This document shows positions 21,201 through 64,000 of a stretch of 64,000 bases of DNA, one piece after another. The DNA comes from Bacteriovoracaceae bacterium UBA4573 (lineage in GTDB: Bacteria > Bdellovibrionota > UBA1018 > UBA923): assembly GCA_002387735.1 (NCBI GenBank), contig DGKJ01000029.1, positions 5,015-69,014 on the forward strand, written 5' to 3'. A model generated the notes under the pieces. It saw nothing but the letters and a program-made list of their open reading frames with translations, made no database searches and was not told the origin of the DNA. The position numbers and the translations under genes were made by a program. Each line of letters opens with the position of its first letter. The first letter of the stretch is position 1.

Positions 21201-22370
21201 TCATTTTTTAAATACCATTTTTACTGCAGAGGTCGGGGACTTTATTTTCTTCAAAACCCGATTCACTCTATTGAAAGCTGCTAGAACCTGTCTACGTAAC
21301 CGGCTTGGCTCTTCTTTTATTCCAGTCGCAAAGGCCGGGCTTAATTTACCCAATACGGTTTGGGTGGCGGGATATTTTTTTGAAATATTATTTAATGTTT
21401 GCAGCCAAATCCAACTATCGTCTGCATATTTGCTCTCAATTAAGTTGAGTCCATTTTGTTCGCCAAGCTTTTGCAAAGAATCCGGAGTGAGTAAGTACAA
21501 ATGTCTGGGAGCGTGATACCCTCCCCACACTCCAGATTTAGTTAGTTGGAAGTGAATTCCCGTTGGAGAAGGCGCCTCTAACACGAGTACTCCTCCTTTT
21601 TTTAAATGCTTTTCCGCGAGCTCAAATAGGGCCTCGGGGGCTTCCATATGCTCAACTACATGATTGGCGAATATTATATCAAATTGCCCTGGAGAAGCTG
21701 TCCTCGGATCAAACGTTTGAGTCGAATGTTTTACCGGCGCTAATTCGTCAAATAAAAATAGATTTTTCTCCTGAAATCCGACTTGAGTAAGGATTTCTAG
21801 GAACAAACCATCGCCGCCACCTACATCCAGGATCCTAGCCTTAGCCTTGGTGGTCCCTATTTTTTCCAAAAACTCCTCAGTGAGATCTTTAGCGACTGCA
21901 TCGCGCCATTCGGCGAAATACCTTTTACCTTCGACCGAATTTTTATATGCGTCATAGTTTTTAAGAAGATGATACGAGTAATAGTTTTCTGGATAGGCAT
22001 TGCCAAGCTCGCCTCTTGATATGGGTGAGGTAAGCATCACGCTTCCGCAACCTTCGCAGGCACTATATTCAAACGATCGATCACTAGACTGGTACTCGTA
22101 GTCTTTTGCCACTGCTAACTGAACATTCGGTTCCTTCTTACAGGTTGGACATTGGATTGAATTTAATTTCATATCATCTAGTACGGCCGAACATTTGGTA
22201 ACTTGTTTAGATTCGGTTGCGCGCAATAGCGACGGCAACAAACCAACCGCAGTACACGCAAACATTATCTGCAAAAATACCTGTATATTCCTTTCCATAG
22301 CATTGGGTCGAATTTCATACAATTTTTGTCGGATATAATCAAGCAATTTTAGATACCGACAGTTAATCAT
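21201..22370 (-). CDS. Class I SAM-dependent methyltransferase with N-terminal zinc ribbon
   Basis: CPTCKK...CEGCG zinc ribbon. Motif I ARILDVGGGDGLF. Acidic motif II LFLFDEL. 389 aa. Confidence 0.7.
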   Translation of the reverse strand: MINCRYLKLLDYIRQKLYEIRPNAMERNIQVFLQIMFACTAVGLLPSLLRATESKQVTKCSAVLDDMKLNSIQCPTCKKEPNVQLAVAKDYEYQSSDRSFEYSACEGCGSVMLTSPISRGELGNAYPENYYSYHLLKNYDAYKNSVEGKRYFAEWRDAVAKDLTEEFLEKIGTTKAKARILDVGGGDGLFLEILTQVGFQEKNLFLFDELAPVKHSTQTFDPRTASPGQFDIIFANHVVEHMEAPEALFELAEKHLKKGGVLVLEAPSPTGIHFQLTKSGVWGGYHAPRHLYLLTPDSLQKLGEQNGLNLIESKYADDSWIWLQTLNNISKKYPATQTVLGKLSPAFATGIKEEPSRLRRQVLAAFNRVNRVLKKIKSPTSAVKMVFKK

Positions 22371-43576: not shown

Positions 43577-45610
43577 TTAATCTTCTCCCAAAACGATTTT
43601 GCATCCGCCAGCCCCTGCGTCGTCAACCGGACTTTTTGCGGCACTTGGGCCAGTACCCTTGGTATTGTCCTTACGTCTAGGTCCACTGCCGCCTAGTTCG
43701 TGGCTTAACATCGCTCGCCCCTGAGTGACTCGCGATACGGGGGCGTAACTGAGAACCAACGCCAGGGCGCGTTTAATACGTTCGACCCGCTCGACAATCA
43801 AACTAGCGGTCGCATCCGCTTCGGTGCCGGATTCGGTCGATTCCTGAGATACTTCCGTCGTCGCATTGAGTTGCTGCGCGGTTGAGTCTAACGCCTCAAG
43901 GCGCGCCGCTAACATACCAAACATGCCCTTTGGAAAGCCGGTACGACTAGCGATTCCCGCATTCAACGGTGAGCGCGCTACGAATCGCTGACGATCTTCC
44001 CGATAGCCCAAATATTTTAAAGTCTCTTCGATGGTCTCAACGCCGCGAGTGTTGCTCCCCGAAACAAAATCGACCACATCTTTCCAAAGCTCCTCGACGA
44101 TCATCTGAGCCAATAGGGTTTCGAGCGTCTGATATTTGCCCAGCGTCGAAGCAATTAAAAACGACTCAGGTAACTCTAACTTATTGTTGTCTTGCGAACG
44201 CTGCAGAACTTCTTCCATGTACTTCGTGACCGCAAGATACAAGTGCAATGCTTTAAGATATGGGGTCGTATAAATCTTATGAATCGGGTCGTTTTCGAAA
44301 AAACGATACTGCACGATTCGATAAATCGGAAGCGGATGGGTTCCATTGAGCAACTGCTCCATCAGTGTGGGATCTTCAGACACCTGAATCGAAATTTCTT
44401 CGGCCACTTTCAAAGCGGCTTCGCGACTAGCCGCGCCTACCAAGAGAAGGTCCGCATTTTCTGCTGCCGTCGTCGAAGTTGAGATCTGACCAAGGCGATC
44501 AGAGGTCACCTCGCAAGAGCGTCCGTATTTTTCGAGGTAAGCCTTGATTTGCTCGATCATGTTGTTGATCGCCTCGGGCGAGGCCGCGTTAGCCTGCGGC
44601 ACTTCTACGGCCTCTAGTGGAAACAAACTTTGGGAACTAGAGCGCAGCAAGTCTTTTTTAACTCTCTTGCGAATAAACGTTGAAAGTTTCTGACTAGCGT
44701 CGAAGAGATCGATTCCCATGTCGCCCTGTTTTAAACGAGCATGGAAAGGTTCACTCATTTTAACGGAACCAGAGTGGGAATGGTGCCAAGCGCGGGCCAG
44801 CTGTTCCGAAAGAGTCGCTTTCATCGATGCGCGCAAAGCAGCCACCACCTCCGCGGTTTCCGGACGTGCCTGCTGTTCCATGTCGGCGATTTGTTCTTCA
44901 ATCGAAGCTTGCAGCACGCTGACGAGCATCATTTGATTGAGTACGTGTTCGCCACGAATGTGCCCGAGTTCGTGTCCGATCACCGCCTCCAGTGCGTCGG
45001 CCGCAATCTGCTCGCGAGTTTTGCTTTCACCAGCGTTTTTCGCCAACACTTCGGCCGAATGGTTGAAGGATTGAATTAATCCCTGGAGAACTACAAAGCG
45101 GATCATCTTCCCGGTGCTAAAGGTATAAGCATTAATCTCCGGGGTATTGGCCACAAATACGACTGCGTCCTTGCGAGCTGCCGGCGAAAAGTCGAGTTTT
45201 TCGGAAACACGCTCAACCATGGCCATGATGTCAGCGTGTTGAAGCCCCGAGGCCTTCGCAAAGGCACCCGAATACACCAATGTGGTTTTTTTGATGAGTT
45301 CACCTAAATAACGTTCGGCCTCGGCCCGAATCACTCCGTAGCTGGGGAGAGACTGAAGCTTGTGCGTCACTTCAGCGTCCAGGCCATCACGAATGTCTCC
45401 CATGAACTGGTCGTCCAAAAAACGCTGGGTCATTGGATGCGACGCAAATACGTCGAGCACGGTCCTCAAGAACTTCTCGTGATCGGCAGTCCAGGGGGCC
45501 TCGGAGAGCTTAATTTTGCGAAACGGTCCCTGCTGAGACTCGTTGGCTCGGGAAACAACCGGAGCTGCCACTAGTAGAGACGCCAAAACTGCCAAAAATG
45601 TGAATTTCAT
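43577..45610 (-). CDS. Secreted M48-family metallopeptidase-domain protein with ~400-aa C-terminal extension
   Basis: Signal peptide MKFTFLAVLASLLVAAPVVSRA. INAYTFSTGKMIRFVVLQGLI...VIGHELGHIRGEH (HExxH plus downstream E), as in Ste24/HtpX-like M48 peptidases. Confidence 0.6.
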   Translation of the reverse strand: MKFTFLAVLASLLVAAPVVSRANESQQGPFRKIKLSEAPWTADHEKFLRTVLDVFASHPMTQRFLDDQFMGDIRDGLDAEVTHKLQSLPSYGVIRAEAERYLGELIKKTTLVYSGAFAKASGLQHADIMAMVERVSEKLDFSPAARKDAVVFVANTPEINAYTFSTGKMIRFVVLQGLIQSFNHSAEVLAKNAGESKTREQIAADALEAVIGHELGHIRGEHVLNQMMLVSVLQASIEEQIADMEQQARPETAEVVAALRASMKATLSEQLARAWHHSHSGSVKMSEPFHARLKQGDMGIDLFDASQKLSTFIRKRVKKDLLRSSSQSLFPLEAVEVPQANAASPEAINNMIEQIKAYLEKYGRSCEVTSDRLGQISTSTTAAENADLLLVGAASREAALKVAEEISIQVSEDPTLMEQLLNGTHPLPIYRIVQYRFFENDPIHKIYTTPYLKALHLYLAVTKYMEEVLQRSQDNNKLELPESFLIASTLGKYQTLETLLAQMIVEELWKDVVDFVSGSNTRGVETIEETLKYLGYREDRQRFVARSPLNAGIASRTGFPKGMFGMLAARLEALDSTAQQLNATTEVSQESTESGTEADATASLIVERVERIKRALALVLSYAPVSRVTQGRAMLSHELGGSGPRRKDNTKGTGPSAAKSPVDDAGAGGCKIVLGED

Positions 45611-45680: not shown

Positions 45681-46415
45681 ATGGTAGCGGTGCGTCAACT
45701 ATTCCATGAAAGGAAGTACCAAAATATGCGCACCAACAAACCGTCCTATTTGATCATTTTTTCGATTTTAGCTTCACTACCCGTATTGACCGGCGTGAAC
45801 GGGTGTCCGACAAGCACCGATAGCCACTCCCTCAATCCTGCCGGTGAGTTTTACGTCGAAGGTACTTCCGAAGTGACCCTTAGCACCCAATACCGTAGCG
45901 AAACACTCAATACTCAAACGGTATTACCGAGCTACTGGCCCAGCGTCGATGCGATTAGAGCCGCTACCACCATGAATGTACGAGTGGCCGAACGTTTGAC
46001 AGATCAAACAGTTGTTACCCTGAATCAGCTCTCGGGCGAAATCGTTCGCATTCCTCTAGATAAAACCGGCCGCGGCAGCGGACTCCTTGTTTCCCAAAAA
46101 GAGCGAGTTTCCGACGGCTGTTTCTTGATCACTAGCGAACAAGTTCACGTGCAATTTAACGAAGCCGGCGATGAGTTCGAACTTTCGTATTCTACGAATT
46201 GGTACTACGACAGCGTCGTAACCGAGCACGTCCCGTGCCCTCTTTATCTCGAAAACTACGCTGCTAACTTAATGGTCATTGGGTCCCCCGACCAGTACGC
46301 CAATCTACGGGACCGCTTATTTGTTTCTACCCAGGCTCTTAGTCTTGAAAGGATGCCAGAACTCCTCAACTTGAAGTTAACACATCACTACGTTGGTTCT
46401 CGTGTTAGCGAATAA
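45681..46415 (+). CDS. Secreted/lipoprotein hypothetical
   Basis: Signal peptide with Cys (LASLPVLTGVNGCPTS). No assignable domain. Confidence 0.4.
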   Translation: MVAVRQLFHERKYQNMRTNKPSYLIIFSILASLPVLTGVNGCPTSTDSHSLNPAGEFYVEGTSEVTLSTQYRSETLNTQTVLPSYWPSVDAIRAATTMNVRVAERLTDQTVVTLNQLSGEIVRIPLDKTGRGSGLLVSQKERVSDGCFLITSEQVHVQFNEAGDEFELSYSTNWYYDSVVTEHVPCPLYLENYAANLMVIGSPDQYANLRDRLFVSTQALSLERMPELLNLKLTHHYVGSRVSE

Positions 46416-47470
46416 TGTTGAAGTGGGTCAATAGAGGCGTTTCGAAGAGGTCACTGATACTCAGCGGTTTGCTGTTGAGTCTTGTGGTCTTGGGAAATCA
46501 CTCGTATGCCCTTTCTCCAACCTACAAACAAGCGGCGGCCTCCCAACTAATTCAACATTTGCGCCCCGAGCTGCGGGGAGTTTTAGGACAACTGCGCAAC
46601 CGGGGAATTCTCGGGTATTGCGAGAGCCTCTTGGCGGGAACCTCGGACCCGGAACATCGCCGCGCGACGCTCGCATTAGAGGCCTTAGACGAACGGTTCT
46701 GGATGGCTGCTGCAGCTCACGTACCCAAGGGTGAAGCGCTGCCCGAGCAGGCGATTTTTCGCCTGGACCACCATGGGGCCACTTACGTTGCTACCAATTA
46801 CCTTATTCACGCCGATTACCTCGCGGGAGAGTTGGCTCGCGCTGCGCGCCTGCCAAATGCGAATAGTCGCATTCCACGAAAACGAATAGATCTGGGTTTA
46901 GCGCTTTGGAATTCTTTTCGTGATGCACTGGTTACAAACCCCCGCATGTGGCGCTGGAAACTTTTGCAACGCCAACCCAGTGGAGCCCTATTGGTCCAAT
47001 ACGAGACGCCCTGGAGAAAACCCGTTCCTTCGGCGGTGGCCCTTCTTGAGCGCCCCGACGGTTCGCGCCTTGCACTTCATCGTACAGCCGATGACCGAGA
47101 ATACCCGAACTTTTGGTCACTGCCGGGCGGAAAAGTAGACGGAATTGAAAACGGATTCGACACCGTTCAACGAGAGGTGTTTGAAGAAACCGGAGTCCTA
47201 GTCGAACATTTTGTACGAGTCGGAAGACAAGAATCGTCTCTGCCGAGTCGCAACGGATACCGCTACGACATCGAAATGTTCTACGCCCGCGTGCCTCAAG
47301 ATATTAAAATTCGCCATTCAACGGAGCACGACGAATTGCGCTGGGTCACACCCCACGAGGTTCGCGCACTTCATCCGATCGGTCCCGTCACGAAGAAATT
47401 GCTGCTCGGACCGCGACCACCGTCAACCATGTCCAGCCAGCTAAATACAGCACGCCACCAATCGGAGTAA
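46415..47470 (+). CDS. Secreted protein with C-terminal NUDIX hydrolase domain
   Basis: Signal peptide. Perfect Nudix box GGKVDGIENGFDTVQREVFEETGV (Gx5Ex7REUxEExGU). Confidence 0.65.
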   Translation: MLKWVNRGVSKRSLILSGLLLSLVVLGNHSYALSPTYKQAAASQLIQHLRPELRGVLGQLRNRGILGYCESLLAGTSDPEHRRATLALEALDERFWMAAAAHVPKGEALPEQAIFRLDHHGATYVATNYLIHADYLAGELARAARLPNANSRIPRKRIDLGLALWNSFRDALVTNPRMWRWKLLQRQPSGALLVQYETPWRKPVPSAVALLERPDGSRLALHRTADDREYPNFWSLPGGKVDGIENGFDTVQREVFEETGVLVEHFVRVGRQESSLPSRNGYRYDIEMFYARVPQDIKIRHSTEHDELRWVTPHEVRALHPIGPVTKKLLLGPRPPSTMSSQLNTARHQSE

Positions 47471-47771
47471 TGGCACCGAAAACTTTAATCCCGGTGAGCA
47501 CCAACGCGTAAAGACTGCCACCAAACACCAGCACGCCCAAAACCCAGCATACGGCTGGCCCCATCAAGTACAATTCTTTAGTTTTACCCGTGGCCGCGGC
47601 AAGACCAACAGCGACTAACGCCAAAGCGTGAAACATTTGGTACCGTACCGCCGTTTCGAACACTTCCAACATTCTAGGCTCAAGCCGCGTTCGCAGAGCG
47701 TGTGCTCCAAAGGCCCCGAGGGCTACAGACAAAAATCCAAAAATACTCCCGATCACCAATATCCAACGCAT
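47388..47771 (-). CDS. DUF423-family small membrane protein
   Basis: 4 TM, 127 aa. N-terminus MRWILVIGSIFGFLSVALGAFGAHAL typical of DUF423 (YgdD-like). TAATG overlap with upstream phhA-like gene. Confidence 0.6.
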   Translation of the reverse strand: MRWILVIGSIFGFLSVALGAFGAHALRTRLEPRMLEVFETAVRYQMFHALALVAVGLAAATGKTKELYLMGPAVCWVLGVLVFGGSLYALVLTGIKVFGAITPIGGVLYLAGWTWLTVVAVRAAISS

Positions 47772-49618
47772 TACGCCGCGCCCTTAGACAGCGCGCTTGC
47801 GTCTGCAAGCAGTTCTCGACCCCGCGCAATCATTTCTGCTTTTTCTACCGACCCGCGGGCGATTTCGTCGAGTCGTTTGTTAATGTTACCGATCCAAGAC
47901 TGCACCCGATGTGCGTTAGAGGTTTTCGCGTCTAGATACCCTGCAATCTCCAGAAGTTCCAACCGCAACAACCAATCTCGGGGATATTTGCGATCAAGTT
48001 TTTCTACTACTCGGTCGAGTCTCACGCCCGTAGCTTCAGGAAGGTTTGCCAGGCTTGCTTTCTTTCTTAATACCGACTCCCGAAATGCTCTAACTTCAGC
48101 GTACAAAACATTAAGCTCTGCGTTTTCCTTCGTAAGATTAGTTTTGGGTTTCGACGGACGCTGGGTATAACCTCCCATCGACGCAACGTAGGACGAACGA
48201 TCCGGTGCGTGACCGAATACGCTTTTAATCGTATTGCCTCGCACCCAGTCGTATTCGCCCCAAGCCGGCTCAAACAGTATGCGGTCGCCCCACTGCACTT
48301 TACAGTCAGTGAAGGTCTTCACGAAACCGCGAGCCCCTGGCTTTGGTACTCCGAGAATTTTTACTCCTGAAACAAAAGTAATTTCGGTTTTTCCCGTAGA
48401 TAGTTTGCGTTCACTTTCGATAGGTCCAACCGGGCAACCAAACCCTTGAGGGTGCCGGGCGACGCCGTGGCCTTTAAGTTCTTTTTCACGAATAGCAAGT
48501 TGGCAGGGGCCTTCAAAACGCAAATAGGCTGGCGACCCATCGCGCGCGCAAAGGGTTTCTACTAATTTTCCGCCGATTTGCACGCCTGAATCAAGCTCTA
48601 CTGTACACACGGCCCGCGAACGTTGAGCTTTCTGCAAACCTGTAATTCCACCCGTTTTAAAAGCCATAGTGCGAGCGAACTGCTCCAACACGACTCCCAG
48701 CGCCTCGAAATTAGGTGTTACGAACAACTGCGGTTGCGGTTTGGTAATATCGTAATGTTGCTGAATACAATTAAGGTCAAACGGAAGCTTTTTTACCGCT
48801 CGATCGAAACAATGAAAAGACTCCGAAAGCGAAGACAACAACCCCGCCCCATAAATTTTTGGATTTTTTAAATCACCTACTAAACCGTATTCAGTTGTCC
48901 ACCAGGCCATGCGCGAAAGCTCGGCAGCTTCACTCGTGTGATCGATAAGTGAGAGAGCCTTTTGCAACTCACGCTCTGCCTTCGCAATGTCGGCCGACGT
49001 CGAACTAGGATTTTCTTTAATATCCGAAAGTTCGCGAATGGCGTCGTACAAGTTGAGATCATGCTGTGCGATGATCGCCTTTCGGGACACCTCGCCGTAT
49101 TGTTTAAGGTATTTTGCGTAGCTTCGATCCGCAAGAATAGGAGCGTGGCCCGCGGCCTCGTGTACTATGTCCGGAGCTGGTGTATAGCCCAAGTGTTCGA
49201 GCGTGCGCATGTCACAGGCGATCGGCAACACACCAATCGAAAGAAACTCTAAAAACACGGCCGGCGGAATAAACCCAACCACGGGTACCGCACGCCAACC
49301 AAAGCGTTTGAGTTTTGCATCCATTTCGCTAATCAACGGAATCCGCTCGATACAAATTCCTGTTTCCTCGAGCCCCTCTAGATATTTTTCATGGGCCTTT
49401 TTTGCAAAAAACCGTTGAGATACCCGCAAAATAAAACGCCAACTCGCATGATCAATGAAAGTGTAAAGAGACGGATCTTGGGCGGCCACAAACGCCGTAA
49501 GGTGAGTAGGAATCGCAATCGTCCGCACCGCTTTTTTGCGGGCGAGTACCCGGGTCTTTTTTTTCTTAACGAGCGAACGCTTTACAGGTTTCGACTTTGC
49601 TTTTTTTCGAGAACGCAT
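47771..49618 (-). CDS. Aromatic-amino-acid (phenylalanine-4-) hydroxylase-like protein with basic N-terminal and ~250-aa C-terminal extensions
   Basis: Core collinear with bacterial PhhA: ...ERIPLISEMDAKLKRFGWRAVPVVGFIPPAVFLEFLSIGVLP...PDIVHEAAGHAPILADRSYAKYL...WWTTEYGLVGDL...IYGAGLLSS. Iron ligands are the two His in HEAAGH, plus the downstream ...WWTTEYGL... Glu. N-terminal KKAKSKPVKR... and a C-terminal Gly/Cys-containing extra domain. Confidence 0.7.
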   Translation of the reverse strand: MRSRKKAKSKPVKRSLVKKKKTRVLARKKAVRTIAIPTHLTAFVAAQDPSLYTFIDHASWRFILRVSQRFFAKKAHEKYLEGLEETGICIERIPLISEMDAKLKRFGWRAVPVVGFIPPAVFLEFLSIGVLPIACDMRTLEHLGYTPAPDIVHEAAGHAPILADRSYAKYLKQYGEVSRKAIIAQHDLNLYDAIRELSDIKENPSSTSADIAKAERELQKALSLIDHTSEAAELSRMAWWTTEYGLVGDLKNPKIYGAGLLSSLSESFHCFDRAVKKLPFDLNCIQQHYDITKPQPQLFVTPNFEALGVVLEQFARTMAFKTGGITGLQKAQRSRAVCTVELDSGVQIGGKLVETLCARDGSPAYLRFEGPCQLAIREKELKGHGVARHPQGFGCPVGPIESERKLSTGKTEITFVSGVKILGVPKPGARGFVKTFTDCKVQWGDRILFEPAWGEYDWVRGNTIKSVFGHAPDRSSYVASMGGYTQRPSKPKTNLTKENAELNVLYAEVRAFRESVLRKKASLANLPEATGVRLDRVVEKLDRKYPRDWLLRLELLEIAGYLDAKTSNAHRVQSWIGNINKRLDEIARGSVEKAEMIARGRELLADASALSKGAA

Positions 49619-49668
49619 CGCCTACATTAAAACTGAGACTTTTCCGATTGGCAATCGCTCTCTCTAGC

Positions 49669-51291
49669 TCAAGACTTCACGACGCCATTGCAACTTCGCT
49701 CGTAAGCTTCTTCCAACTTTTCGGAGAGCTTTTCTAAATCTAAAATCTCTTTTTCGTGCCCCGGAAGCACTGCGTAAGTGTCTTTACCAGTGCGAGTAAA
49801 ATAAAACCGAAGACACTCCGCGTCCGACAAATAATCTAATGCGTAACGCGGTCCGTAGGTCGCGGTGATCTGCGAAAAAAAACCTTTCACAGTAGGGTTC
49901 CCCCCGTTGGCTGGAAACTCTTTGAGAAAAAGAGCTAGAAAATCTCGTTTCACCTTAGGGTCTGCAGTATTCGGAGGCGTTTGAGGAACAACGGCGGCTA
50001 CTCCACTCGAACTGCCGGGTTGCGCATAAGTGACTGGCCCCACGCTCGATGGAACAGTGGCTACGGTCCCGTTTCCTCCCGTAGGCGGCGTCGCTGTGAT
50101 CTGCCACTGAGTACCGGAACCTGCCTTTAAGGTAAATTTCGAGTGCGTATGCAAAGGAATTGCAGATCTCGGCACCCAACTTTGGTGGCCCTCTTTTGGG
50201 TGATCGATCAGAATTTGCGGCGCTCCGCTTCTCTTCAACAGCGGCAACTGCCCCGACAAGATAGGTCCCCCAACCGGCGGAGGCGACATCGCGAAAACCA
50301 AGGCACTCTTTGGCAAACGCATTCCGCGAGAATCAACTCCTTCGTAGGAGTTCCCCGCACGCAGGATCAAATCGCGTCCGGCGTTTTCGGTTCCGAGTAG
50401 TTCGAGATCCTTCGAACCGCTCGGGTAAGGAATTGCCGCAGCCGCCTGAGGTTTCCAACTGTGATAATCAAACCGCACCACAAACGAGTGCCAATACCCG
50501 TTCCATCGCAGTGGGGTTGACGGCCGCACCAAAACCCAGGCCGAACTACTGCCACCCACGACCGACACTACGTCACTCGGTACGCCCGCATCGATAGCGT
50601 GATTGGGAAGCGGCGAAAACGTTAGCCGTGTGTTTGGTAACAATACCTCGAACTCTACTTTTCCGGATCGATTCACATCACCAAACGTTTCAACTTTTAT
50701 GAGATAAAGTTTGTCGGTCACGGCCACGAACTGGGAATCCGAGACCATGTGAATATCAAGAATCTGGCCATAAATGCTGGGGTCCACTACGGAAGCATTG
50801 CCCAAAGCCGGCACCGAGTTCGGTACTAGTTTACGCCGATCGAGCAACACCAAGCGATTTTGATCCGTAACTGCCACGACGGTACCTAGATCCCACTCCG
50901 CAATCGAATAAACAGGGGTCGCCATTGGTTGGATAGGTGCGAGTGAATTTTGGGCCTGCGCAGTGTAAAGACGGTAAGAATCATTGATCCACCAGGTTTG
51001 GGGATTCAACGAATTCAAATTGGTGGAAAGAGATTTGCGAATCCAATCTCCTGGTACCAGGTGGCGCACAACATGGCGGTAAACTGAAGGATTAGGGAAC
51101 GACTGTTGATCAAATTCCAAAAGGTCGGCGGTCAAGAGTCCCGCGACTGCCCCGCTGGGCCCTGAGGCCGGGGCGACTATTTGAGCGAAAGTGCCATTGG
51201 CCAACGCAGCCCAACTGCAAAATGGATAGACCGCGAACACCAAGCCGACAATTAAAGTTAGACTTTTTCTAAAAATAAAAACAAAGCTCAT
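49669..51291 (-). CDS. Secreted hypothetical protein (540 aa), beta-rich
   Basis: Signal peptide MSFVFIFRKSLTLIVGLVFAVYPFCSWA. Start overlaps the radical-SAM stop by 4 nt. Confidence 0.5.
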   Translation of the reverse strand: MSFVFIFRKSLTLIVGLVFAVYPFCSWAALANGTFAQIVAPASGPSGAVAGLLTADLLEFDQQSFPNPSVYRHVVRHLVPGDWIRKSLSTNLNSLNPQTWWINDSYRLYTAQAQNSLAPIQPMATPVYSIAEWDLGTVVAVTDQNRLVLLDRRKLVPNSVPALGNASVVDPSIYGQILDIHMVSDSQFVAVTDKLYLIKVETFGDVNRSGKVEFEVLLPNTRLTFSPLPNHAIDAGVPSDVVSVVGGSSSAWVLVRPSTPLRWNGYWHSFVVRFDYHSWKPQAAAAIPYPSGSKDLELLGTENAGRDLILRAGNSYEGVDSRGMRLPKSALVFAMSPPPVGGPILSGQLPLLKRSGAPQILIDHPKEGHQSWVPRSAIPLHTHSKFTLKAGSGTQWQITATPPTGGNGTVATVPSSVGPVTYAQPGSSSGVAAVVPQTPPNTADPKVKRDFLALFLKEFPANGGNPTVKGFFSQITATYGPRYALDYLSDAECLRFYFTRTGKDTYAVLPGHEKEILDLEKLSEKLEEAYERSCNGVVKS

Positions 51292-53255
51292 TTTACTCCC
51301 CTTACCCCAAAATTCTCGGTCTCCCCGCTTAAACTTGTATCTTCGTTGCGTAATGCGTTTCGTACTAAGTTTCTCGCGACACTAGGCCTTGGCACCATTT
51401 CTATGCCTTCATCGCCAAACCAACCGCGCACATCTTCTCGTAATCCGAGTCCATGCATGTAATTGTAAAGCGCTCGTCGCAGAGCTCGCCCCAACACGTC
51501 GTGATCCACTCCGGTCGGATCCACAAACTCTAGGTCGTTTTCCGCGAAGCCTTCAAATTTTTTGGGCAGAACTTTAATGCCAAAACGCTCAGGATTTCGA
51601 CCAATCGGACTATGCACAGTGGCCGAGAATCGGTGCCAATAAGCAGATTTTAAACAGTCGTTTTCGAAAAGTTGTCGCACTAGTTCCAAACTATCGACCG
51701 TGTCCTGAAGGGTTTGAGATGGAAACCCGTACATCAGATACGCGTGAACCAATATACCAGCGTTGGCAAAGTTTTTGGTCACTCTCGCGACCTGTTCGAC
51801 GGTCACGCCCTTATCCATGAGTTTCAATAGCCGATTGGTTGCCACCTCGAGGCCCCCAGTCACCGCGATACAACCGGCATCACTCATGAGTTGCGCCAGT
51901 TCAGACGTAAAACTTTTCTCGAATCTAAGATTTCCCCACCAACTCGCCACCAAGTCTCGTTTTAGTATTTCTTCGGAAATAGCTCGCAGAGCGGCGGGAG
52001 GAGCAGCCTCGTCTACAAAGTGAAAACCACTCACGCCGGTCTCTCGCACCAAAGCCTGCATGTGATCTACAACCATACCGCTCGGAGTGTTTTGATATCG
52101 CCCAATATAGTCGAGACTCGTGTCGCAAAACGTGCACTTTTTCCAGTAACAACCGTGGGCGATCGTCAATTTGTTCCACCGCGCGTCGGACCAAATCCGG
52201 TGCATGGGATTGAGCATTTCGATGACCGAAATATACTGCGCAAGATTTAAACCCTCGTAAGATGGGGCACCGAGCTCAGCCATGGGAATGTCGTCTTCCT
52301 GGGCGTCATTGCACCACTGAACACTAGTTCCATTCCCCACCAAAGTTCTTAGAAGTTTTGATTGCGGGCGCTTGCCGTGCAGAAACTCCAAAATGTTCAG
52401 AAGTGGTCGCGCTCCATCGTCAAACACCAAAAAATCAAAATAATTGAAAACCCGTGTTTCACTGCAACGTCGTAGTTCGGTATTCACGTAACCACCGCCA
52501 AGAGCCAACTTAATGTTCGGCTGCTTGAGTTTTACCTGACGCGCTACTCGAAACGCGCCATACACGTTTCCCGGAAACGGTGCACTCAAGCAAATGAGCT
52601 CCGGTTCTAGTTCCGCTACGACTTCCGCGGAGAGTTCATCGAGCATTTCGTCAACCAACGTAGGAGCCTCGGATTCTAATGCTTCGTTCAGAGCGGCAAA
52701 ACTTGTCTGACTGGCCGCCAGTTTCTCACCGTATCGCGCGAGACTAAACCGAGAGTCTATTCCCTGCGCAATTACGTCCGCCAGATCGTCCAAAAAAAGT
52801 GAACCCAGGTACTTTGCCTGATCTTGAACCCCCATTTCACCAAACATCTTTAACAGGTGGTGTCCTACAGCAGAGTCCTGAAGCGGAAGAAACCGAGGCC
52901 CCTCCGGCACCAAAGTGCGTCCAGCAAGACGCGTAGCAAGTGAAGGGTTTTTTCCTTGAAGAAACGCGACCACCGAATCGACAACCCGAACATAGTCGTC
53001 GGCCGCTTCTAAGAAAAACTGCACACTCTCTGATTCGATGGCTGACGATTCGAAATCTCTCTTTAAGCGTTCGCGAACTCGCTTTAATCCACTGGCCGAA
53101 AAAATCCTGCAGGCTAATTCAATTGAAAGATCTCTCTGGTAGGGCTGAACATTCAGTTCGCCGGCGCGGTTTTTTAGAAAACCATAAAGCGCGGCGCTCG
53201 CCGGATACGGCGTATTCAATTGCGTCATCGGTGGTGTAAGAAGAAGGACTCGCAC
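51288..53255 (-). CDS. B12-binding-domain radical SAM protein (non-canonical Cx4Cx2C cluster motif)
   Basis: N-terminal MRVLLLTPP...YPASAALYGFLKNRAG typical of the cobalamin-binding domain of class B rSAMs. GCYWKKCTFCD cluster motif. 655 aa. Confidence 0.65.
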   Translation of the reverse strand: MRVLLLTPPMTQLNTPYPASAALYGFLKNRAGELNVQPYQRDLSIELACRIFSASGLKRVRERLKRDFESSAIESESVQFFLEAADDYVRVVDSVVAFLQGKNPSLATRLAGRTLVPEGPRFLPLQDSAVGHHLLKMFGEMGVQDQAKYLGSLFLDDLADVIAQGIDSRFSLARYGEKLAASQTSFAALNEALESEAPTLVDEMLDELSAEVVAELEPELICLSAPFPGNVYGAFRVARQVKLKQPNIKLALGGGYVNTELRRCSETRVFNYFDFLVFDDGARPLLNILEFLHGKRPQSKLLRTLVGNGTSVQWCNDAQEDDIPMAELGAPSYEGLNLAQYISVIEMLNPMHRIWSDARWNKLTIAHGCYWKKCTFCDTSLDYIGRYQNTPSGMVVDHMQALVRETGVSGFHFVDEAAPPAALRAISEEILKRDLVASWWGNLRFEKSFTSELAQLMSDAGCIAVTGGLEVATNRLLKLMDKGVTVEQVARVTKNFANAGILVHAYLMYGFPSQTLQDTVDSLELVRQLFENDCLKSAYWHRFSATVHSPIGRNPERFGIKVLPKKFEGFAENDLEFVDPTGVDHDVLGRALRRALYNYMHGLGLREDVRGWFGDEGIEMVPRPSVARNLVRNALRNEDTSLSGETENFGVRGVK

Positions 53256-53388
53256 GACTACCCCTTAAAGACTTTTTCAGAAATAATGCATAGCATTAAC
53301 ACACTTAAAAAGTCAACTTAACCAAAGATATCGTAATCTTAGGGACTTGCCTCTCGTGTCGTGTTAGGCGGACGCCAGGGGGTGTTCT

Positions 53389-54828
53389 ATGAAAATTCTA
53401 AAATTCTTCTGGCCCGTGCTTGTTTTGGCCATGATTCCCGTTTCCAGTCACTCAGCGACAAAGGTTAACGATCTTTTGATCGCGATGTACATGGAGCCCC
53501 ACTCCCCGGGTGGACTGCACTTCGTCACATTTGAAACTCTTGGGGAAAACCCCACACCCGTGCCGTTTAAGGATTTACCAACCATCGATTCTTCGAAGCT
53601 CGTCATGAAGACCCACTCTCTTTCGCTTTCTTATTTGAGTTACCCCTTTGCTCACACACCCACACTGCCGCTGGTTGCGGGTTCACTACGGCTTGAAAAC
53701 CGAACCGTGGGCGTACCCGATTTAGTTCCTTCAGACCGCGGCTCTCGCCCGCTTGTGCTTGGCCAGGTAACCGAGAGCCTCGCACTAGATGTTCCAATCG
53801 GTGGAACCAATCACCTGATTTCCGTTTCGGAAGTTCGTTATGAGTCGGGAATCGCTCTTTTAGGCGACACCCTAGAGGCGCGCGGTCGTTTTCGGGACGC
53901 AGTTCTTCACGAAGCTCGAACCGATCTAAGAGAAAGTTTAAAACGCAACCGAGGTCACGAACCAGTCAATCGAGCCGCCCTCAACCGCATGTTTCCAGGA
54001 CTCGAGGTTAGCGCAAAATCCTTGATGGCCAGTTTACGGGCTTTTTTAATCGCCGAAGATGCATCGGAAGTCGACGCCACTCTAAAGAGATTGGAAGAGT
54101 TTTTTTATCGGCTTGCGGCCCAATCTCCGACACTCGTTGAAACGTCAGAGCGTGATTTCCTGGCCGGCCAGAAAATCCCCTCAACCTTGCCGAGATCTGT
54201 ACCGAACCCAGAAACCGCGACCGTAAGGCTCACGCGATTGTCTGAATTTTTTTTCGAGTCTGCTCAATCGTCGCACTTAGCACGGGAGCGCGGCGAAATC
54301 GAAAATGCTAAAATTGCGGCCACTAACGCATTTCGAGTGTTACTCGAAATGCACGTTGTGATCGGAAAAAATCTCGGTTCTCCGGGCACCAAGCGAACTC
54401 TCCATGCCCTGGGCGATGTTGGCATCATGATCGCATCAATGATTGCGTCGTGGAACACCGACGGCGGGGCCCATGCCGGTCTCTTGGCGCTGAGTTTCGC
54501 CGCAATGGCCGATTTATTTAGAACGACTTGGGTGCGCGACAACGTACTTCGCTCACCAAGATTTTTATTTCCCGGCATTCGCGGAAGCGTCGAACGCAAT
54601 TCCGCAAGGGACCTGCTCAGTCAAGGACGTTTCGAAAACCTACTGCAGGTAGGGCTCCGGAGCCCTGTAATAATAAACCCCCAGTTTCAGGATTGGCATC
54701 GAGCTGCTTCTGAACTCGCAGAAAACGGCAAACTCGTAAGTGCGCGAGAGATGCTCGACGTTCTAAAACTTGCGTCCAAACTCGAGGCCGACGCATTGGT
54801 TTCTTGCGCGACGCTACTTGAGAACTAA
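53389..54828 (+). CDS. Secreted hypothetical protein (479 aa)
   Basis: Signal peptide MKILKFFWPVLVLAMIPVSSHSA. Mostly helical C-terminal half. Divergent from the radical-SAM operon. Confidence 0.5.
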   Translation: MKILKFFWPVLVLAMIPVSSHSATKVNDLLIAMYMEPHSPGGLHFVTFETLGENPTPVPFKDLPTIDSSKLVMKTHSLSLSYLSYPFAHTPTLPLVAGSLRLENRTVGVPDLVPSDRGSRPLVLGQVTESLALDVPIGGTNHLISVSEVRYESGIALLGDTLEARGRFRDAVLHEARTDLRESLKRNRGHEPVNRAALNRMFPGLEVSAKSLMASLRAFLIAEDASEVDATLKRLEEFFYRLAAQSPTLVETSERDFLAGQKIPSTLPRSVPNPETATVRLTRLSEFFFESAQSSHLARERGEIENAKIAATNAFRVLLEMHVVIGKNLGSPGTKRTLHALGDVGIMIASMIASWNTDGGAHAGLLALSFAAMADLFRTTWVRDNVLRSPRFLFPGIRGSVERNSARDLLSQGRFENLLQVGLRSPVIINPQFQDWHRAASELAENGKLVSAREMLDVLKLASKLEADALVSCATLLEN

Positions 54829-55147: not shown

Positions 55148-55528
55148 ATGGGTAAGAAACTATTTGTCGGCAACCTTCCATTTTCGGCAACTGACGAGTC
55201 GCTTGCGCAAATTTTCGCACAAGTCGGCACCGTTGAGTCCGCGAAGGTGATCACTGACAAAATGTCCGGGCGCAGTAAAGGCTTTGGATTCGTAGAAATG
55301 GCCGACGATGCGCAAGCAGCCGATGCCGTTGCGCGCTTCAATGGCATTGAACTCGAAGGCCGACCACTCACAGTAGCTGAAGCTAAACCGCAGGAGCCCC
55401 GCCAAGATCGTGGCGGCCGCGGTGGTTTTGGCGGTGGCGGTGGTCGCGGTGGTTACGGCGGCGGTGGCGGCCGTGGCGGCGATCGCGGTGGTTACGGCGG
55501 CGGCGGCGGTGGCCGCGGTCGATACTAA
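55148..55528 (+). CDS. RRM-type RNA-binding protein with RGG/Gly-rich C-terminal tail
   Basis: RNP-2 LFVGNLPF. RNP-1 KGFGFVEM. Tail (GGGGRGGYGGGGGRGGDRGGYGG). GAGGAGA SD 5 nt upstream. Confidence 0.85.
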   Translation: MGKKLFVGNLPFSATDESLAQIFAQVGTVESAKVITDKMSGRSKGFGFVEMADDAQAADAVARFNGIELEGRPLTVAEAKPQEPRQDRGGRGGFGGGGGRGGYGGGGGRGGDRGGYGGGGGGRGRY

Positions 55529-61654: not shown

Positions 61655-62797
61655 TCAGACGTACTGACCTTTCTTTATCTTATCTACGATGATTTTTTCT
61701 GGCATCGTCGGGTCCTTCGGATCAACCGTAAAGTACGCCTGTTGTTCGCAACGACGTTTGTTTTTAAGCAACCAACGAAGAATTTCAGAACACCCTTTAT
61801 TGCGTTTATCTTGAAAAAAGGGGTCATTTTTAAGTGCGTCGTCGGCTTTCTTTAGGGCGCGCACCTCTTGAGCGTCATTCTCTTTTACGGGATAGTCGTT
61901 TAGATCATATTTTTTAATGTCTTCTGGCAACACCCCTAAGAAATGAACATCGGGGGCCGAGTAGTCGGAGTTTCGAATAAGACTCGCTGCGGACCCCGCC
62001 TTAAGTGTGCGATAAATGTTTTGCATGGTGTACGCGTCAAGGTCGCCAAAGAAAAACATCGGCGTCCGCAATTGGTCCTGAATGAGTTTAGCCCAGCCGC
62101 GCACGGCGTTTGACGGCACCCCTTGCGCACCAATCACGATAGCATTGTGCCGTTTGGTGAAACCATTGGCCACGAGCGTATTGGCGGTACCTTCCGATTC
62201 GACAATAAGAGCAAAATCCACTTTCTTTTTTGTCGTCAGTTTTAAGTTTTGCGGTCGATTTTTTGGCTGAAAGGGACTTGTTCCGAGCTTAGAAAGGTCG
62301 ATCACTGCCTTTTCGCCGTCCGGTAAAGTTTCCGTAACAACCAAATGCTGGGAATAGGTTTGCCCGCCTCGGTCGTTTGCGTAGCAATTCACTTCTTCGC
62401 GATAAATCTCTAACATTTCGCAGATGAAGTCGATCGTAGCGTCACTTTCGTCTTGATCCCCGAAATCCAGCGGTTTGAGTTTTGGATTGTGCTTAATCTC
62501 GCCTTTCGAAATATAGTACAACTCGCGTTTGGTATTTACGCTCCCGGTATCGAGATTTCGTAAAAGAATCTCCAGCATGAAAATTGCGCGCGACATTTTT
62601 TTTACAGAACTTACGTTCAGTTCTGTACGAACCTTTTTGTTACCGGGCTGCAAATAACCGACCTTGTGATCGTATCTCGCGTTGTCCAATGCGCATTTGG
62701 TGGCCAGCAGCACTGGACGTTTGGCCTTCTCGAGATCACTCAACAAGCGGCTACAAAGTTCTCGCGACATTTTTGGTATCGTTTGGTCTTTATTCAT
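61655..62797 (-). CDS. DNA topoisomerase VI subunit A / Spo11-like (5Y-CAP + Toprim)
   Basis: Catalytic-Tyr motif TKRELYYISK in winged-helix region. Toprim Glu (ALIVESEGTANTL) and DxD (FFFGDLDAYTMQNI). 380 aa, typical of Top6A. Confidence 0.7.
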   Translation of the reverse strand: MNKDQTIPKMSRELCSRLLSDLEKAKRPVLLATKCALDNARYDHKVGYLQPGNKKVRTELNVSSVKKMSRAIFMLEILLRNLDTGSVNTKRELYYISKGEIKHNPKLKPLDFGDQDESDATIDFICEMLEIYREEVNCYANDRGGQTYSQHLVVTETLPDGEKAVIDLSKLGTSPFQPKNRPQNLKLTTKKKVDFALIVESEGTANTLVANGFTKRHNAIVIGAQGVPSNAVRGWAKLIQDQLRTPMFFFGDLDAYTMQNIYRTLKAGSAASLIRNSDYSAPDVHFLGVLPEDIKKYDLNDYPVKENDAQEVRALKKADDALKNDPFFQDKRNKGCSEILRWLLKNKRRCEQQAYFTVDPKDPTMPEKIIVDKIKKGQYV

Positions 62798-62805
62798 GTG
62801 TTCCT

Positions 62806-64000
62806 CTACAAATTGAAACTAGTTTGACCGCCGCCATCACTGTCGTCGTCGTCACTGCTAGCTCGTACGGCAGCCGGCTTAGCTTTTTCACGGGCACCGC
62901 TTTTAGATTTTTTCTGTTTTCCGTTTTCGGAGCCGTCACTATCCCCGCCTTCGTCGTCGTCCGGCTTTTTATTTTTGTTACTTTTGGCGATCGCTGCGGT
63001 CACAATCGCATCTGCTTCTTTTAACTCGGTTTGTGCTTCCCGAGCATCACGACCAAGAATTTTTACCAACCCATCCTCAGCGCGTTTTTTGCGAGCTTCA
63101 GGAGCATTGGTGATCCGACAAAGACCATCGACTAAAATTGGGCAAAACTGTTCGATATGCCGCAGTTTTTCTTCGAGATCATTGGCTTTGACTTCGCGCC
63201 GAATATGCCGTGAAAGTCGTTGCCCCGCTTGTATAAGCGCTCTTCGAATTTCTTCTACTAGCTCTTCACTCGCGTCGATGGTTTCTTTGGATGCATTTTT
63301 AAATTTAATAAACGGCGACACCACCGACACGGCCATGACGTAGGGGCCCGAAGGCAACCCACCGCGCGGCTGCGCCAGTTGATATGCGCGCCAATTTACA
63401 CTTTCAATTGCTTTAACTATTGCACATGCCGCTTTATCGAACTGTAGCGGCACCCGATTAGCGAAACGCAAAACCTGAACCGGAGTTTCGGCGTCATCGC
63501 CTACCGCGCGGTTTAACAATCGCGCAATCGCCACTTCAACCTGAACGGGTTTAAAGTCCGCGATGGTGGGCTTGCGAGAAACCACCGAAAAAAAATCTAC
63601 TTCGCCCAATCTTTGAATTGCTTTCGAGAGCGACGCCTCGCCGATTGCAAGCACCGATCGAGTGCTAGGCGCCATGAGCGGAGTATTTTGAATTGCACTG
63701 AAAAGTTCTCTAAACTCTGCTTCACTGAGTGCATCAACGTTCTTTTCAAACAATGCGGGCTTTAGCCCAGCTTTCTTTAATTCGGCAATCGATGCATCGC
63801 TGACTCGCGAAAAACCTTTTTTTAGCCAAGCCGAAGTTTTCACCCGGCCAAACAAGTGAGAGTGCGCAATGAATTCGCCCAACTTCATGGTGTGGGGGTG
63901 CGGTTCGGTGGCTTGAGGAATTTCTGGGATCTCTTTGGTCAGACGTTCAAGTTTTTGCACGCCCAGTTCAGGAAGTTTATAGCTAAGCGTTATGTGGGGG
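62806..64000 (-). CDS. DNA topoisomerase VI subunit B, C-terminal part (H2TH + transducer). Gene continues beyond the window edge
   Basis: Transducer-domain block VLRFANRVPLQFDKAACAIVKAIESVNWRAYQL...GPYVMAVSVVSPFIKFKNASKETIDASEELVEEIRRAL matches the Top6B transducer. The GHKL ATPase N-terminal half is not in the window. Charged low-complexity C-tail. Confidence 0.65.
   Translation of the reverse strand, partial: PHITLSYKLPELGVQKLERLTKEIPEIPQATEPHPHTMKLGEFIAHSHLFGRVKTSAWLKKGFSRVSDASIAELKKAGLKPALFEKNVDALSEAEFRELFSAIQNTPLMAPSTRSVLAIGEASLSKAIQRLGEVDFFSVVSRKPTIADFKPVQVEVAIARLLNRAVGDDAETPVQVLRFANRVPLQFDKAACAIVKAIESVNWRAYQLAQPRGGLPSGPYVMAVSVVSPFIKFKNASKETIDASEELVEEIRRALIQAGQRLSRHIRREVKANDLEEKLRHIEQFCPILVDGLCRITNAPEARKKRAEDGLVKILGRDAREAQTELKEADAIVTAAIAKSNKNKKPDDDEGGDSDGSENGKQKKSKSGAREKAKPAAVRASSDDDDSDGGGQTSFNL

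What the first reader, a model, noticed from the sequence alone, without database searches (positions are those of the whole stretch)
47771..49618. Phenylalanine-hydroxylase fold with a Lys-rich N-terminus and ~250-aa C-terminal extra domain
Bacterial PhhA is ~270-300 aa. This 615-aa protein has the catalytic core, including the two iron-ligand His (HEAAGH) and the downstream Glu region. It adds a 35-aa highly basic N-terminal segment (KKAKSKPVKRSLVKKKKTRVLARKK) and a C-terminal domain containing Gly/Cys-rich stretches (GHGVARHPQGFGCPVGP...). Possible explanations are a regulatory domain replacing the eukaryotic ACT domain, nucleic-acid or membrane targeting by the basic tail, or a second catalytic function.
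Basis: partly seen in the sequence, partly recalled or inferred. Interest (0 to 1): 0.6.

Follow-up and report, generated by a model that had tools for sequence, protein, structure and literature searches.

The report
Long-form aromatic amino acid hydroxylase
This gene encodes an ordinary member of a large, already catalogued and crystallised family of double-length bacterial phenylalanine-hydroxylase-type enzymes; only its short, highly basic N-terminal tail is unusual.

Summary
The 615-aa ORF at 47771..49618 (-) is real and is as described. It has a Biopterin_H catalytic core, with the iron ligands H153, H158 and E243 invariant among homologs. It has a polybasic N-terminal tail (17 K/R, no D/E in 32 residues) and about 290 extra C-terminal residues.

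The architecture is not new:
- It matches the curated NCBIfam model NF010657, "aromatic amino acid hydroxylase" (611 bits against a cut-off of 346, covering profile positions 4-575 of 580).
- An AlphaFold model superposes end to end on PDB 7VGM, the Bacillus cereus phenylalanine hydroxylase (TM 0.83/0.89).
- At least 8,000 homologs and at least 437 genome hits share the layout.
- 75 of 80 genome loci encode it as one ORF, and none splits at the domain junction, so mis-assembly is excluded.

The extra region is two modules: a beta-rich domain (about 335-475) and a helical bundle (about 500-614). Neither has a Pfam model. No ACT-domain protein appears among the fold matches and no ACT family among the Pfam hits, and the region is not Cys-rich. 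The beta-module also occurs, rarely, fused to FMN reductases and to a lipoprotein-like protein, with the same invariant residues. Its function is unknown.

The basic tail is rare in the family, predicted disordered, and probably translated. A DUF423 membrane-protein gene is translationally coupled downstream, here and in several relatives. No pterin-recycling or tyrosine-catabolism genes lie in the window.

Verdict: a new member of a known kind, of low interest.

The parts
47771..49618 (-). Whole gene: long-form aromatic amino acid hydroxylase, 615 aa plus TAA stop
   Evidence: ORF listing. NF010657 scores 611.3 bits against a cut-off of 346, residues 33-605 to profile 4-575/580. 7VGM matches at E 2.4e-123. 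Model against 7VGM gives TM 0.83/0.89.
49523..49618 (-). Polybasic N-terminal tail, residues 1-32 (11 K, 6 R, 0 D/E). Predicted disordered and lineage-specific.
   Evidence: pLDDT is below 50 for residues 1-28. Composition and codons: 6 Arg are CGN codons, and both other frames contain stops. The charge is unique in the window. Among 138 full-size homologs only P0002 has a comparable tail. P0002's tail follows a strong SD and has no alternative start. Caveat: there is no canonical SD before this ATG, and an in-frame GTG lies at codon 31.
48647..49522 (-). Catalytic core (Biopterin_H fold), residues 33-324
   Evidence: Pfam PF00351. Alignment to short bacterial and eukaryotic hydroxylase structures.
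49145..49162 (-). HEAAGH motif: iron ligands H153 and H158. E154 is at the position of the pterin-contacting Glu of human PAH (that role is from established knowledge).
   Evidence: Translation check. Aligned to His138/His143 of C. violaceum PAH. Invariant.
48890..48892 (-). E243, third iron ligand (2-His-1-carboxylate triad)
   Evidence: Aligned to Glu184 of C. violaceum PAH. Invariant.
48923..49075 (-). Family-specific two-helix insertion in the core, residues 182-232. It carries the conserved LSDxKE(D/N)P motif.
   Evidence: It is the gap between the two Pfam/TIGR stretches. Helices are predicted at 185-202 and 208-223. It aligns without a gap to 7VGM. S198, K201 and E202 are invariant.
48179..48616 (-). 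Beta-rich module, residues 335-480, with no Pfam model. Invariant residues: G350, G370, H389, G392, G423, C439, V441, F449, P451, W453, G454, D457.
   Evidence: AF2 strands 337-469, pLDDT above 90. No Pfam hit at E<=10. A profile search of PDB finds only 7VGM residues 311-468. The same module occurs in FMN_red fusions P0258/P0270/P0228 and in the lipoprotein-like P0271.
47774..48178 (-). Linker (conserved KTNLT, N494) and C-terminal helical bundle, residues 481-615. Conserved DWLLRLELLE motif.
   Evidence: Helices at 500-518, 528-544, 549-562, 569-589 and 591-614. W549, L550, R552, E554 and E557 are invariant. No Pfam hit.
47388..47771 (-). DUF423 small membrane protein gene. Its ATG overlaps the hydroxylase stop (TAATG), so it is likely co-translated. 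The linkage recurs in relatives.
   Evidence: PF04241 at 1.2e-28. Junction sequence. The same adjacency appears in 5 of 7 sampled contexts (the window plus six homolog contexts) and in 11 of 70 genome loci by BLASTP.

Best explanation
This is a chromosomal gene of an Oligoflexia (Bdellovibrionota) bacterium. It encodes a long-form non-heme iron, tetrahydropterin-dependent aromatic amino acid hydroxylase of the NF010657 family. The structural prototype is Bacillus cereus phenylalanine hydroxylase, PDB 7VGM.

Shown here:
- The catalytic core has the complete 2-His-1-carboxylate iron site (H153, H158, E243).
- The protein is built as tail, then core with a 50-aa helical insertion, then beta-module, then helical bundle.
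- The whole protein folds as one compact unit like 7VGM.

Inferred from established hydroxylase chemistry:
- Fe(II) plus a tetrahydropterin and O2 generate an Fe(IV)=O species that hydroxylates the ring of an aromatic amino acid.
- The most likely reaction is L-Phe to L-Tyr. The residue that separates Phe/Tyr hydroxylases from Trp hydroxylases is Trp here (W239). The substrate-binding residues R138, Y145, T146, D150 and S262/S263 and the pterin-contacting residues F122 and E154 are invariant.

The two C-terminal modules are constitutive parts of the family that pack on the core. Their role (stability, oligomerisation or ligand sensing) is not known. The polybasic tail is a recent decoration of a small clade, disordered, and probably an electrostatic tether to an anionic partner such as membrane or nucleic acid.
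For: - NF010657: 611 bits against a cut-off of 346, nearly full-length.
- 7VGM: E 2.4e-123 over residues 34-558.
- AF2 model: pLDDT 87.3, pTM 0.84. It superposes on 7VGM at TM 0.83/0.89 over 589 columns.
- 7VGM_A is in the iron-site test set of PMC13198095.
- H153, H158, E243, R138, Y145, T146, D150, F122, S262, S263, W239 and E154 are invariant in 32 homologs.
- At least 8,000 homologs; the listed ones are mostly 560-626 aa.
- At least 437 genome hits; 75/80 loci are single ORFs.
- The closest hit, P0001, is 99% identical and comes from an Oligoflexia MAG.
Against: - No biochemical data for this protein, or (in the searchable library) for any long-form member. No primary paper for 7VGM was found. 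The substrate and the physiological pterin are therefore inferred.
- The position of human PAH Tyr325 is Ala/Gly/Asn in this family.
- No PCD/phhB, dihydropteridine reductase or homogentisate-pathway gene is in the window or next to the homologs examined. The pathway context is therefore unsupported, although 64 kb says little about the rest of the genome.
Confidence: 0.88

Rival explanations
1. The C-terminal beta-module is an autonomous ligand-binding (allosteric or regulatory) domain. It would do for the bacterial long form what the N-terminal ACT domain does for animal PAH.
For: Twelve residues, including the polar H389, C439 and D457, stay invariant. This holds even where the module is attached to an FMN reductase or a lipoprotein-like protein instead of a hydroxylase. 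That argues for an intrinsic function rather than a mere interface with the core. The module is compact and confidently folded.
Against: No ACT-domain protein is among the listed fold matches and no ACT family among the Pfam hits. The module is C-terminal rather than N-terminal. Invariant Gly/Pro/Trp/Phe residues can simply be fold-determining. No ligand or kinetic data exist.
Confidence: 0.2
2. The extra region supplies a second catalytic or cofactor-recycling activity, for example pterin-4a-carbinolamine dehydratase-like or dihydropteridine-reductase-like. That would make a separate phhB unnecessary.
For: No PCD signature or PCD gene is in the window or beside the homologs. The beta-module is found fused to NAD(P)H-dependent FMN reductases.
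Against: No sequence or fold similarity to any enzyme family. Two of the FMN_red fusions (P0228, P0270) start with signal-peptide-like sequences and P0271 has a lipobox, so their modules probably work outside the cytoplasm, where pterin recycling is unlikely. PCD genes are often unlinked.
Confidence: 0.07
3. The polybasic tail is not part of the protein. Translation starts at the in-frame GTG at codon 31, and the A-rich 90 nt are a 5' leader.
For: No canonical Shine-Dalgarno precedes the ATG; the only AGG is 2 nt away. GTG at codon 31 would give an N-terminus close to the family's usual one, a median of 9 residues before IPxHL. The region contains A7, A8 and A6 runs. No other assembly in the databases covers this N-terminus; P0001 is C-terminal only.
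Against: The nearest full-length relative, P0002, has a similar basic tail. Its ATG follows a strong SD (GGAGAGGGGA, 5 nt upstream) and it has no alternative start. 6 of the 17 basic residues here are CGN Arg codons, so basicity is not a by-product of A-richness, and the other two frames contain stops. No SD precedes the GTG either, and about half the genes in the window lack an SD.
Confidence: 0.25
4. The two-part ORF is an artefact: a mis-assembly or read-through fusion of a short PhhA with an unrelated downstream gene.
For: None beyond the unusual length.
Against: The same architecture is in a crystal structure. It is a single ORF in 75/80 genomes. The exceptions are four contig-edge truncations and one frameshift inside the core. 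The short database hits project onto arbitrary truncation points or onto conserved internal Met residues.
Confidence: 0.01

Closest known systems
Bacillus cereus ATCC 14579 phenylalanine hydroxylase, PDB 7VGM (NCBIfam NF010657 / PRK14056 long-form aromatic amino acid hydroxylase)
   Same: Same full architecture: core with helical insertion, beta-module and helical bundle. 38% identity, TM 0.83/0.89 over 589 columns. Same iron triad. Same DWLLRLELLE and H..GFG.P.G motifs.
   Different: The B. cereus protein has no polybasic N-terminal tail. In the HMMER alignment the query has shorter loops in the beta-module. The query comes from a different phylum (Bdellovibrionota versus Bacillota).
Short bacterial PhhA (C. 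violaceum 1LTZ/3TK2, Legionella 4BPT, Colwellia 2V27; NF008877, TIGR01267)
   Same: Same catalytic fold and iron ligands; 26-28% identity over the core.
   Different: These are 270-300 aa with no C-terminal modules and no 50-aa insertion. The query scores below both curated cut-offs (180.8 < 247; 151.9 < 264.75). No adjacent phhB is seen here.
Eukaryotic PAH/TH/TPH (for example human PAH 1J8U, rat 5DEN)
   Same: Homologous catalytic domain and the same chemistry.
   Different: The eukaryotic enzymes add an N-terminal ACT regulatory domain and a short C-terminal tetramerisation helix. The query has neither, and scores far below the TIGR01268-70 cut-offs.
FMN_red + beta-module proteins (P0258, P0270, P0228) and the lipoprotein-like P0271
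   Same: They share the beta-module, with 34-38% identity to the query's and all 12 invariant residues.
   Different: They have no hydroxylase core and no helical bundle. The N-terminal domain is an NADPH-dependent FMN reductase (PF03358) or unknown. P0228, P0270 and P0271 have signal-peptide or lipobox-like N-termini. They are rare, with only a handful of clusters.

Membership tests
Biopterin-dependent aromatic amino acid hydroxylase superfamily (Pfam PF00351) | Profile score above the Pfam gathering threshold | tested here: met
   99.5 bits against 22.7, E 2.5e-28
Biopterin-dependent aromatic amino acid hydroxylase superfamily (Pfam PF00351) | 2-His-1-carboxylate iron-binding triad | tested here: met
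   H153/H158/E243 align to His138/His143/Glu184 of C. violaceum PAH and are invariant in 32 homologs
Biopterin-dependent aromatic amino acid hydroxylase superfamily (Pfam PF00351) | Conserved substrate- and pterin-binding residues (human PAH R270, T278, D282, S349, F254, E286, W326) | tested here: met
   The equivalents R138, T146, D150, S262/S263, F122, E154 and W239 are invariant. The register was counted from the HEAAGH and WWTxE anchors. The residue roles come from established PAH structural literature, not from tests here.
Biopterin-dependent aromatic amino acid hydroxylase superfamily (Pfam PF00351) | Pterin- and O2-dependent hydroxylation of an aromatic amino acid | not testable with these tools
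   Needs an enzyme assay
Long-form aromatic amino acid hydroxylase (NCBIfam NF010657 / PRK14056; prototype 7VGM) | Full-length profile score above the curated cut-off | tested here: met
   611.3 bits against 346; residues 33-605 to profile 4-575/580
Long-form aromatic amino acid hydroxylase (NCBIfam NF010657 / PRK14056; prototype 7VGM) | Core, beta-module and helical bundle in one polypeptide with the 7VGM fold | tested here: met
   Foldseek E 6.4e-56, TM 0.83/0.89, 589 aligned columns
Long-form aromatic amino acid hydroxylase (NCBIfam NF010657 / PRK14056; prototype 7VGM) | Helical insertion of about 50 aa within the catalytic core | tested here: met
   Residues 182-232 align gap-free to 7VGM, and helices are predicted there
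Short bacterial phenylalanine 4-monooxygenase PhhA (NF008877, TIGR01267) with phhB partner | Score above the curated equivalog cut-offs | tested here: not met
   180.8 < 247 and 151.9 < 264.75
Short bacterial phenylalanine 4-monooxygenase PhhA (NF008877, TIGR01267) with phhB partner | Adjacent pterin-4a-carbinolamine dehydratase (phhB) gene | tested here: not met
   No PCD motif in six frames of the window. No PF01329 among about 50 window ORFs or in six homolog contexts. The rest of the genome was not available.
ACT-regulated eukaryotic-type hydroxylases (TIGR01268/01269/01270) | N-terminal ACT regulatory domain and a score above the cut-off | tested here: not met
   80-83 bits against cut-offs of 655-706. 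No ACT family in Pfam at E<=1. No listed fold match of the extra region is an ACT-domain protein.

The most novel reading that the evidence does not exclude
The beta-module (residues about 335-475) may be an uncharacterised, autonomous ligand-binding domain. It has no Pfam model. It is shared by long-form hydroxylases, exported FMN reductases and lipoproteins. In this Oligoflexia clade the enzyme may also have acquired a polybasic tail which, together with the translationally coupled DUF423 membrane protein, places the hydroxylase at the inner membrane.
Probability: 0.15. Interest if true: 0.45.

Novelty: new member of a known kind. Interest (0 to 1): 0.18.

Why it matters
For the finding as posed it matters little. 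The "extra domain" is the normal state of a large, curated and structurally solved family, so it should not be flagged as a novel fusion.

Two small points remain useful:
1. About half of this widespread enzyme (the beta-module and the helical bundle) has no domain model and no known function. The beta-module behaves as a mobile unit in at least three architectures. That makes it a reasonable target for defining a new domain family and for reading the 7VGM structure with that question in mind.
2. The polybasic tail and the recurrent coupling to DUF423 give a testable hint about localisation in Bdellovibrionota.

Tried and rejected
- PCD/phhB: a six-frame regex for the PCD signature found nothing, and Pfam on about 50 ORFs of the window found no pterin or tyrosine-catabolism genes.
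- Split-gene or mis-assembly idea: rejected.
- "Gly/Cys-rich metal-binding stretch": rejected. Cys is 1.7% and C395 is variable.
- ACT-like regulatory domain by fold: rejected.
- Stand-alone C-terminal domain proteins: the short hits are fragments that start at arbitrary positions or at the conserved internal Met237/Met318.
- Literature: no primary paper on 7VGM or on long-form bacterial hydroxylases was found in the library. 7VGM appears only as a test case in methods papers.
- Promoter and terminator scan of 47000-53600: counts at or below shuffled expectation, so uninformative.
- Genome-wide habit of basic tails: rejected, because the tail is unique among 50 ORFs.
Full report
**Observation**

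The window holds a 615-codon ORF on the minus strand at 47771..49618, starting at ATG and ending at TAA. Pfam finds one family, Biopterin_H (PF00351), at E 2.5e-28 and 99.5 bits against a gathering score of 22.7. It matches in two stretches, about 52-178 and about 232-318. HEAAGH is residues 153-158 and the downstream glutamate is E243, in MAWWTTEYGL.

HMMER aligns H153, H158 and E243 to His138, His143 and Glu184 of Chromobacterium violaceum PAH. These are its known iron ligands (established knowledge). All three are invariant in an alignment of 32 homologs.

Counting from those anchors, the equivalents of human PAH R270, Y277, T278, D282, F254, E286, W326 and S349/S350 are R138, Y145, T146, D150, F122, E154, W239 and S262/S263. 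All are invariant. The residue roles are taken from the PAH structural literature and were not tested here.

Three corrections apply:
- The extra C-terminal part is about 290 aa, not 250.
- It is not Cys-rich: 5 Cys in 291 residues. Only C439 is invariant, and the Cys of GFGCPVGP is T/S/A in relatives.
- The core contains an unnoticed two-helix insertion of about 50 aa (182-232). This explains the split Pfam match.

**What it is**

That holds only for the short PhhA type.

The query matches the curated NCBIfam equivalog NF010657 (PRK14056, "aromatic amino acid hydroxylase", 580 positions). It scores 611 bits against a cut-off of 346, covering residues 33-605. It falls below the cut-offs of the short PhhA models and of the eukaryotic models.

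PDB entry 7VGM (592 aa) matches at E 2.4e-123 over residues 34-558. Its title is [quoted passage not shown], released 2022-04-27.

An AlphaFold2 model built on 32 homologs has pLDDT 87.3 and pTM 0.84. It superposes on 7VGM over 589 columns with TM 0.83/0.89. 7VGM chain A is part of an iron-site benchmark set (PMC13198095).

**Distribution**

A database search returned at least 8,000 homologs. The listed ones are mostly 560-626 aa, and several are named "aromatic amino acid hydroxylase" from Bdellovibrionota, Oligoflexia and Bacteriovoracia MAGs. The best hit (P0001, 99% identical, partial) is from an Oligoflexia MAG.

A scan of species-representative genomes gave at least 437 confirmed loci. 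They come from:
- Bdellovibrionota
- Verrucomicrobiota
- Ca. Eisenbacteria
- Acidobacteriota
- Nitrospirota
- Halioglobus
- Lysobacteraceae
- Thermoflavimicrobium

Bacillus and Urechidicola appear among the protein hits.

**Not an artefact**

Of 80 genome loci, 75 carry the core and the C-terminal region in one ORF. Four are cut by a contig end. One (L048) is interrupted at about residue 248, inside the catalytic core rather than at the domain boundary.

An exhaustive HMMER search with the C-terminal 291 aa alone found 530 cluster representatives. Every full-size hit has the region at about 300-590, behind a hydroxylase core. The short hits project onto arbitrary truncation points or begin at the conserved internal Met237 or Met318. 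That pattern is what contig-edge fragments look like.

**Anatomy of the extra region**

The models show two modules:
- A beta-rich domain (strands 337-469).
- After a linker with the conserved KTNLT motif, a five-helix bundle (500-614) carrying the conserved DWLLRLELLE motif.

The C-terminal region modelled alone is locally confident (pLDDT 92.5) but has pTM 0.61. It superposes poorly as a unit on 7VGM (TM 0.48). This suggests each module docks on the core rather than on the other module.

Neither module hits any Pfam family, even at E<=10. A profile of beta-modules finds only 7VGM (311-468) in the PDB. Foldseek of the C-terminal model finds only 7VGM significantly (3e-21). It is followed by marginal Sm/LSm-like barrel matches of 50-75 residues (E 0.03-0.1). 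None of the listed matches is an ACT-domain protein.

**An unexpected side result**

Two hits to the C-terminal region, P0228 and P0258, have an N-terminal NADPH-dependent FMN reductase domain (PF03358). This is followed by the beta-module only, and the proteins end right after it. A search with P0258 found a third, P0270 (406 aa, seen on 4 contigs). It also found P0271, a 362-aa protein with a lipobox-like N-terminus, an unknown N-terminal half and the beta-module.

Twelve residues are invariant across all three architectures: G350, G370, H389, G392, G423, C439, V441, F449, P451, W453, G454 and D457.

The beta-module is thus a discrete, mobile evolutionary unit. The retained polar residues hint at an intrinsic function, but nothing here says what it is.

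**The basic tail**

Residues 1-32 carry 11 Lys and 6 Arg and no acidic residue. Residues 1-28 are predicted disordered, with pLDDT below 50. Homologs align only from about residue 33.

The tail's net charge of +17 is unique among 50 ORFs of the window. Among 138 full-size homologs the median length before the IPxHL motif is 9 residues. Only P0002 (20 aa, +10) and, more weakly, P0027 have basic tails. P0150 also has a longer basic N-terminus.

P0002 is the nearest full-length relative (57% identity). Its ATG follows a strong Shine-Dalgarno (GGAGAGGGGA, 5 nt upstream), and it has no alternative in-frame start, so its tail is translated.

In the window, the evidence points both ways:
- The ATG lacks a canonical SD, and an in-frame GTG lies at codon 31.
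- Six of the basic residues are CGN Arg codons, and both other frames contain stops.

I rate translation of the tail at about 0.75. Its function (binding to membrane, nucleic acid or polyphosphate) is untested.

**Context**

The hydroxylase stop overlaps the ATG of a DUF423 membrane-protein gene (TAATG). The same adjacency holds for P0002, P0094, P0034 and P0037, making 5 of 7 contexts counting the window. It also holds for 11 of 70 genome loci by BLASTP.

Upstream on the same strand are a 540-aa protein with no Pfam hit and a B12-binding radical SAM enzyme.

The rest of the window is housekeeping chromosome: sucA/sucB/lpd, an H+-pyrophosphatase, Tsp protease, RNase H, purE/purK and topoisomerase VI A/B. 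There is no PCD/phhB, pterin-synthesis, HPPD or homogentisate gene in the window or beside the homologs. A 64-kb window cannot show that these genes are absent from the genome.

**Mechanism**

Shown: an intact AAAH active site in a 7VGM-like fold.

Inferred: Fe(II)/tetrahydropterin/O2 chemistry that hydroxylates an aromatic amino acid. Phe to Tyr is most likely, because the Trp/Phe specificity position is Trp (W239), as in PAH and TH (established knowledge). The C-terminal modules are constitutive structural parts of unknown role.

**Literature**

The searchable library holds no primary description of 7VGM or of the long form.

**Verdict**

This is a new member of a known, curated and crystallised family. 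It has a lineage-specific polybasic tail and an uncharacterised but already solved C-terminal half. Interest is low.

Noticed in passing
window 47388-47771 (-); also L005:2250-2618, L003:9761-10132, L004:7932-8303, L007:3390-3758: A DUF423 (PF04241) small membrane-protein gene is translationally coupled to the long-form hydroxylase (stop/start overlap, TAATG in the window). This holds in 5 of 7 sampled contexts and in 11 of 70 genome loci by BLASTP. In several relatives a protein of about 210 aa with no Pfam hit follows.
   Followed up: partly
P0258, P0270 (L088:3547-4767), P0228, P0271; query residues about 335-475 = window 48194-48616 (-): The beta-module of the hydroxylase's C-terminal half also occurs fused to NADPH-dependent FMN reductases (PF03358) and to a lipoprotein-like protein of unknown function; P0228, P0270 and P0271 have signal-peptide or lipobox-like N-termini. 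Twelve residues are invariant across all architectures. No Pfam model covers it.
   Followed up: partly
window 61655-62797 (-) and 62806-63960 (-): Adjacent genes for topoisomerase VI subunit A (TP6A_N + Toprim) and a Topo-VIb transducer-domain protein. The latter ORF ends 40 bases short of the window end. Topo VI is mainly archaeal and eukaryotic and is sporadic in bacteria.
   Followed up: no
window 49669-51291 (-) and 51288-53255 (-): Directly upstream of the hydroxylase on the same strand lie a 540-aa protein with a signal-like N-terminus and no Pfam hit, and a 655-aa B12-binding radical SAM enzyme. Their reading frames overlap by 4 nt, so they may form one operon with the hydroxylase and DUF423.
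   Followed up: no
window 49523-49618 (-): The tail-coding segment contains homopolymer runs A7, A8 and A6. These are potential slippage or sequencing-error sites that could shift the start of the ORF.
   Followed up: partly
window 46415-47470 (+) versus 47388-47771 (-): A 351-aa NUDIX-domain protein (the NUDIX domain lies only in its C-terminal third) converges on the DUF423 gene. Their 3' ends overlap by 83 nt.
   Followed up: no
window 43577-45610 (-) and 4652-5539 (+): There are two M48-family peptidase homologs. The 677-aa one matches only the first half of the M48 profile and carries about 440 extra C-terminal residues with no family match.
   Followed up: no
window 55148-55528 (+): A small (126 aa) RRM-domain RNA-binding protein with a strong Shine-Dalgarno (AGGAG).
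   Followed up: no
L048:3077-4888: In one Bdellovibrionota MAG the hydroxylase is broken into two overlapping ORFs at about residue 248, inside the catalytic core. This is probably a frameshift, a pseudogene or an assembly error.
   Followed up: no
window 21201-22370 (-): A methyltransferase-domain protein with a strongly basic C-terminus (net +11 over the last 35 residues). It is the only other strongly basic terminus among the window's ORFs.
   Followed up: no
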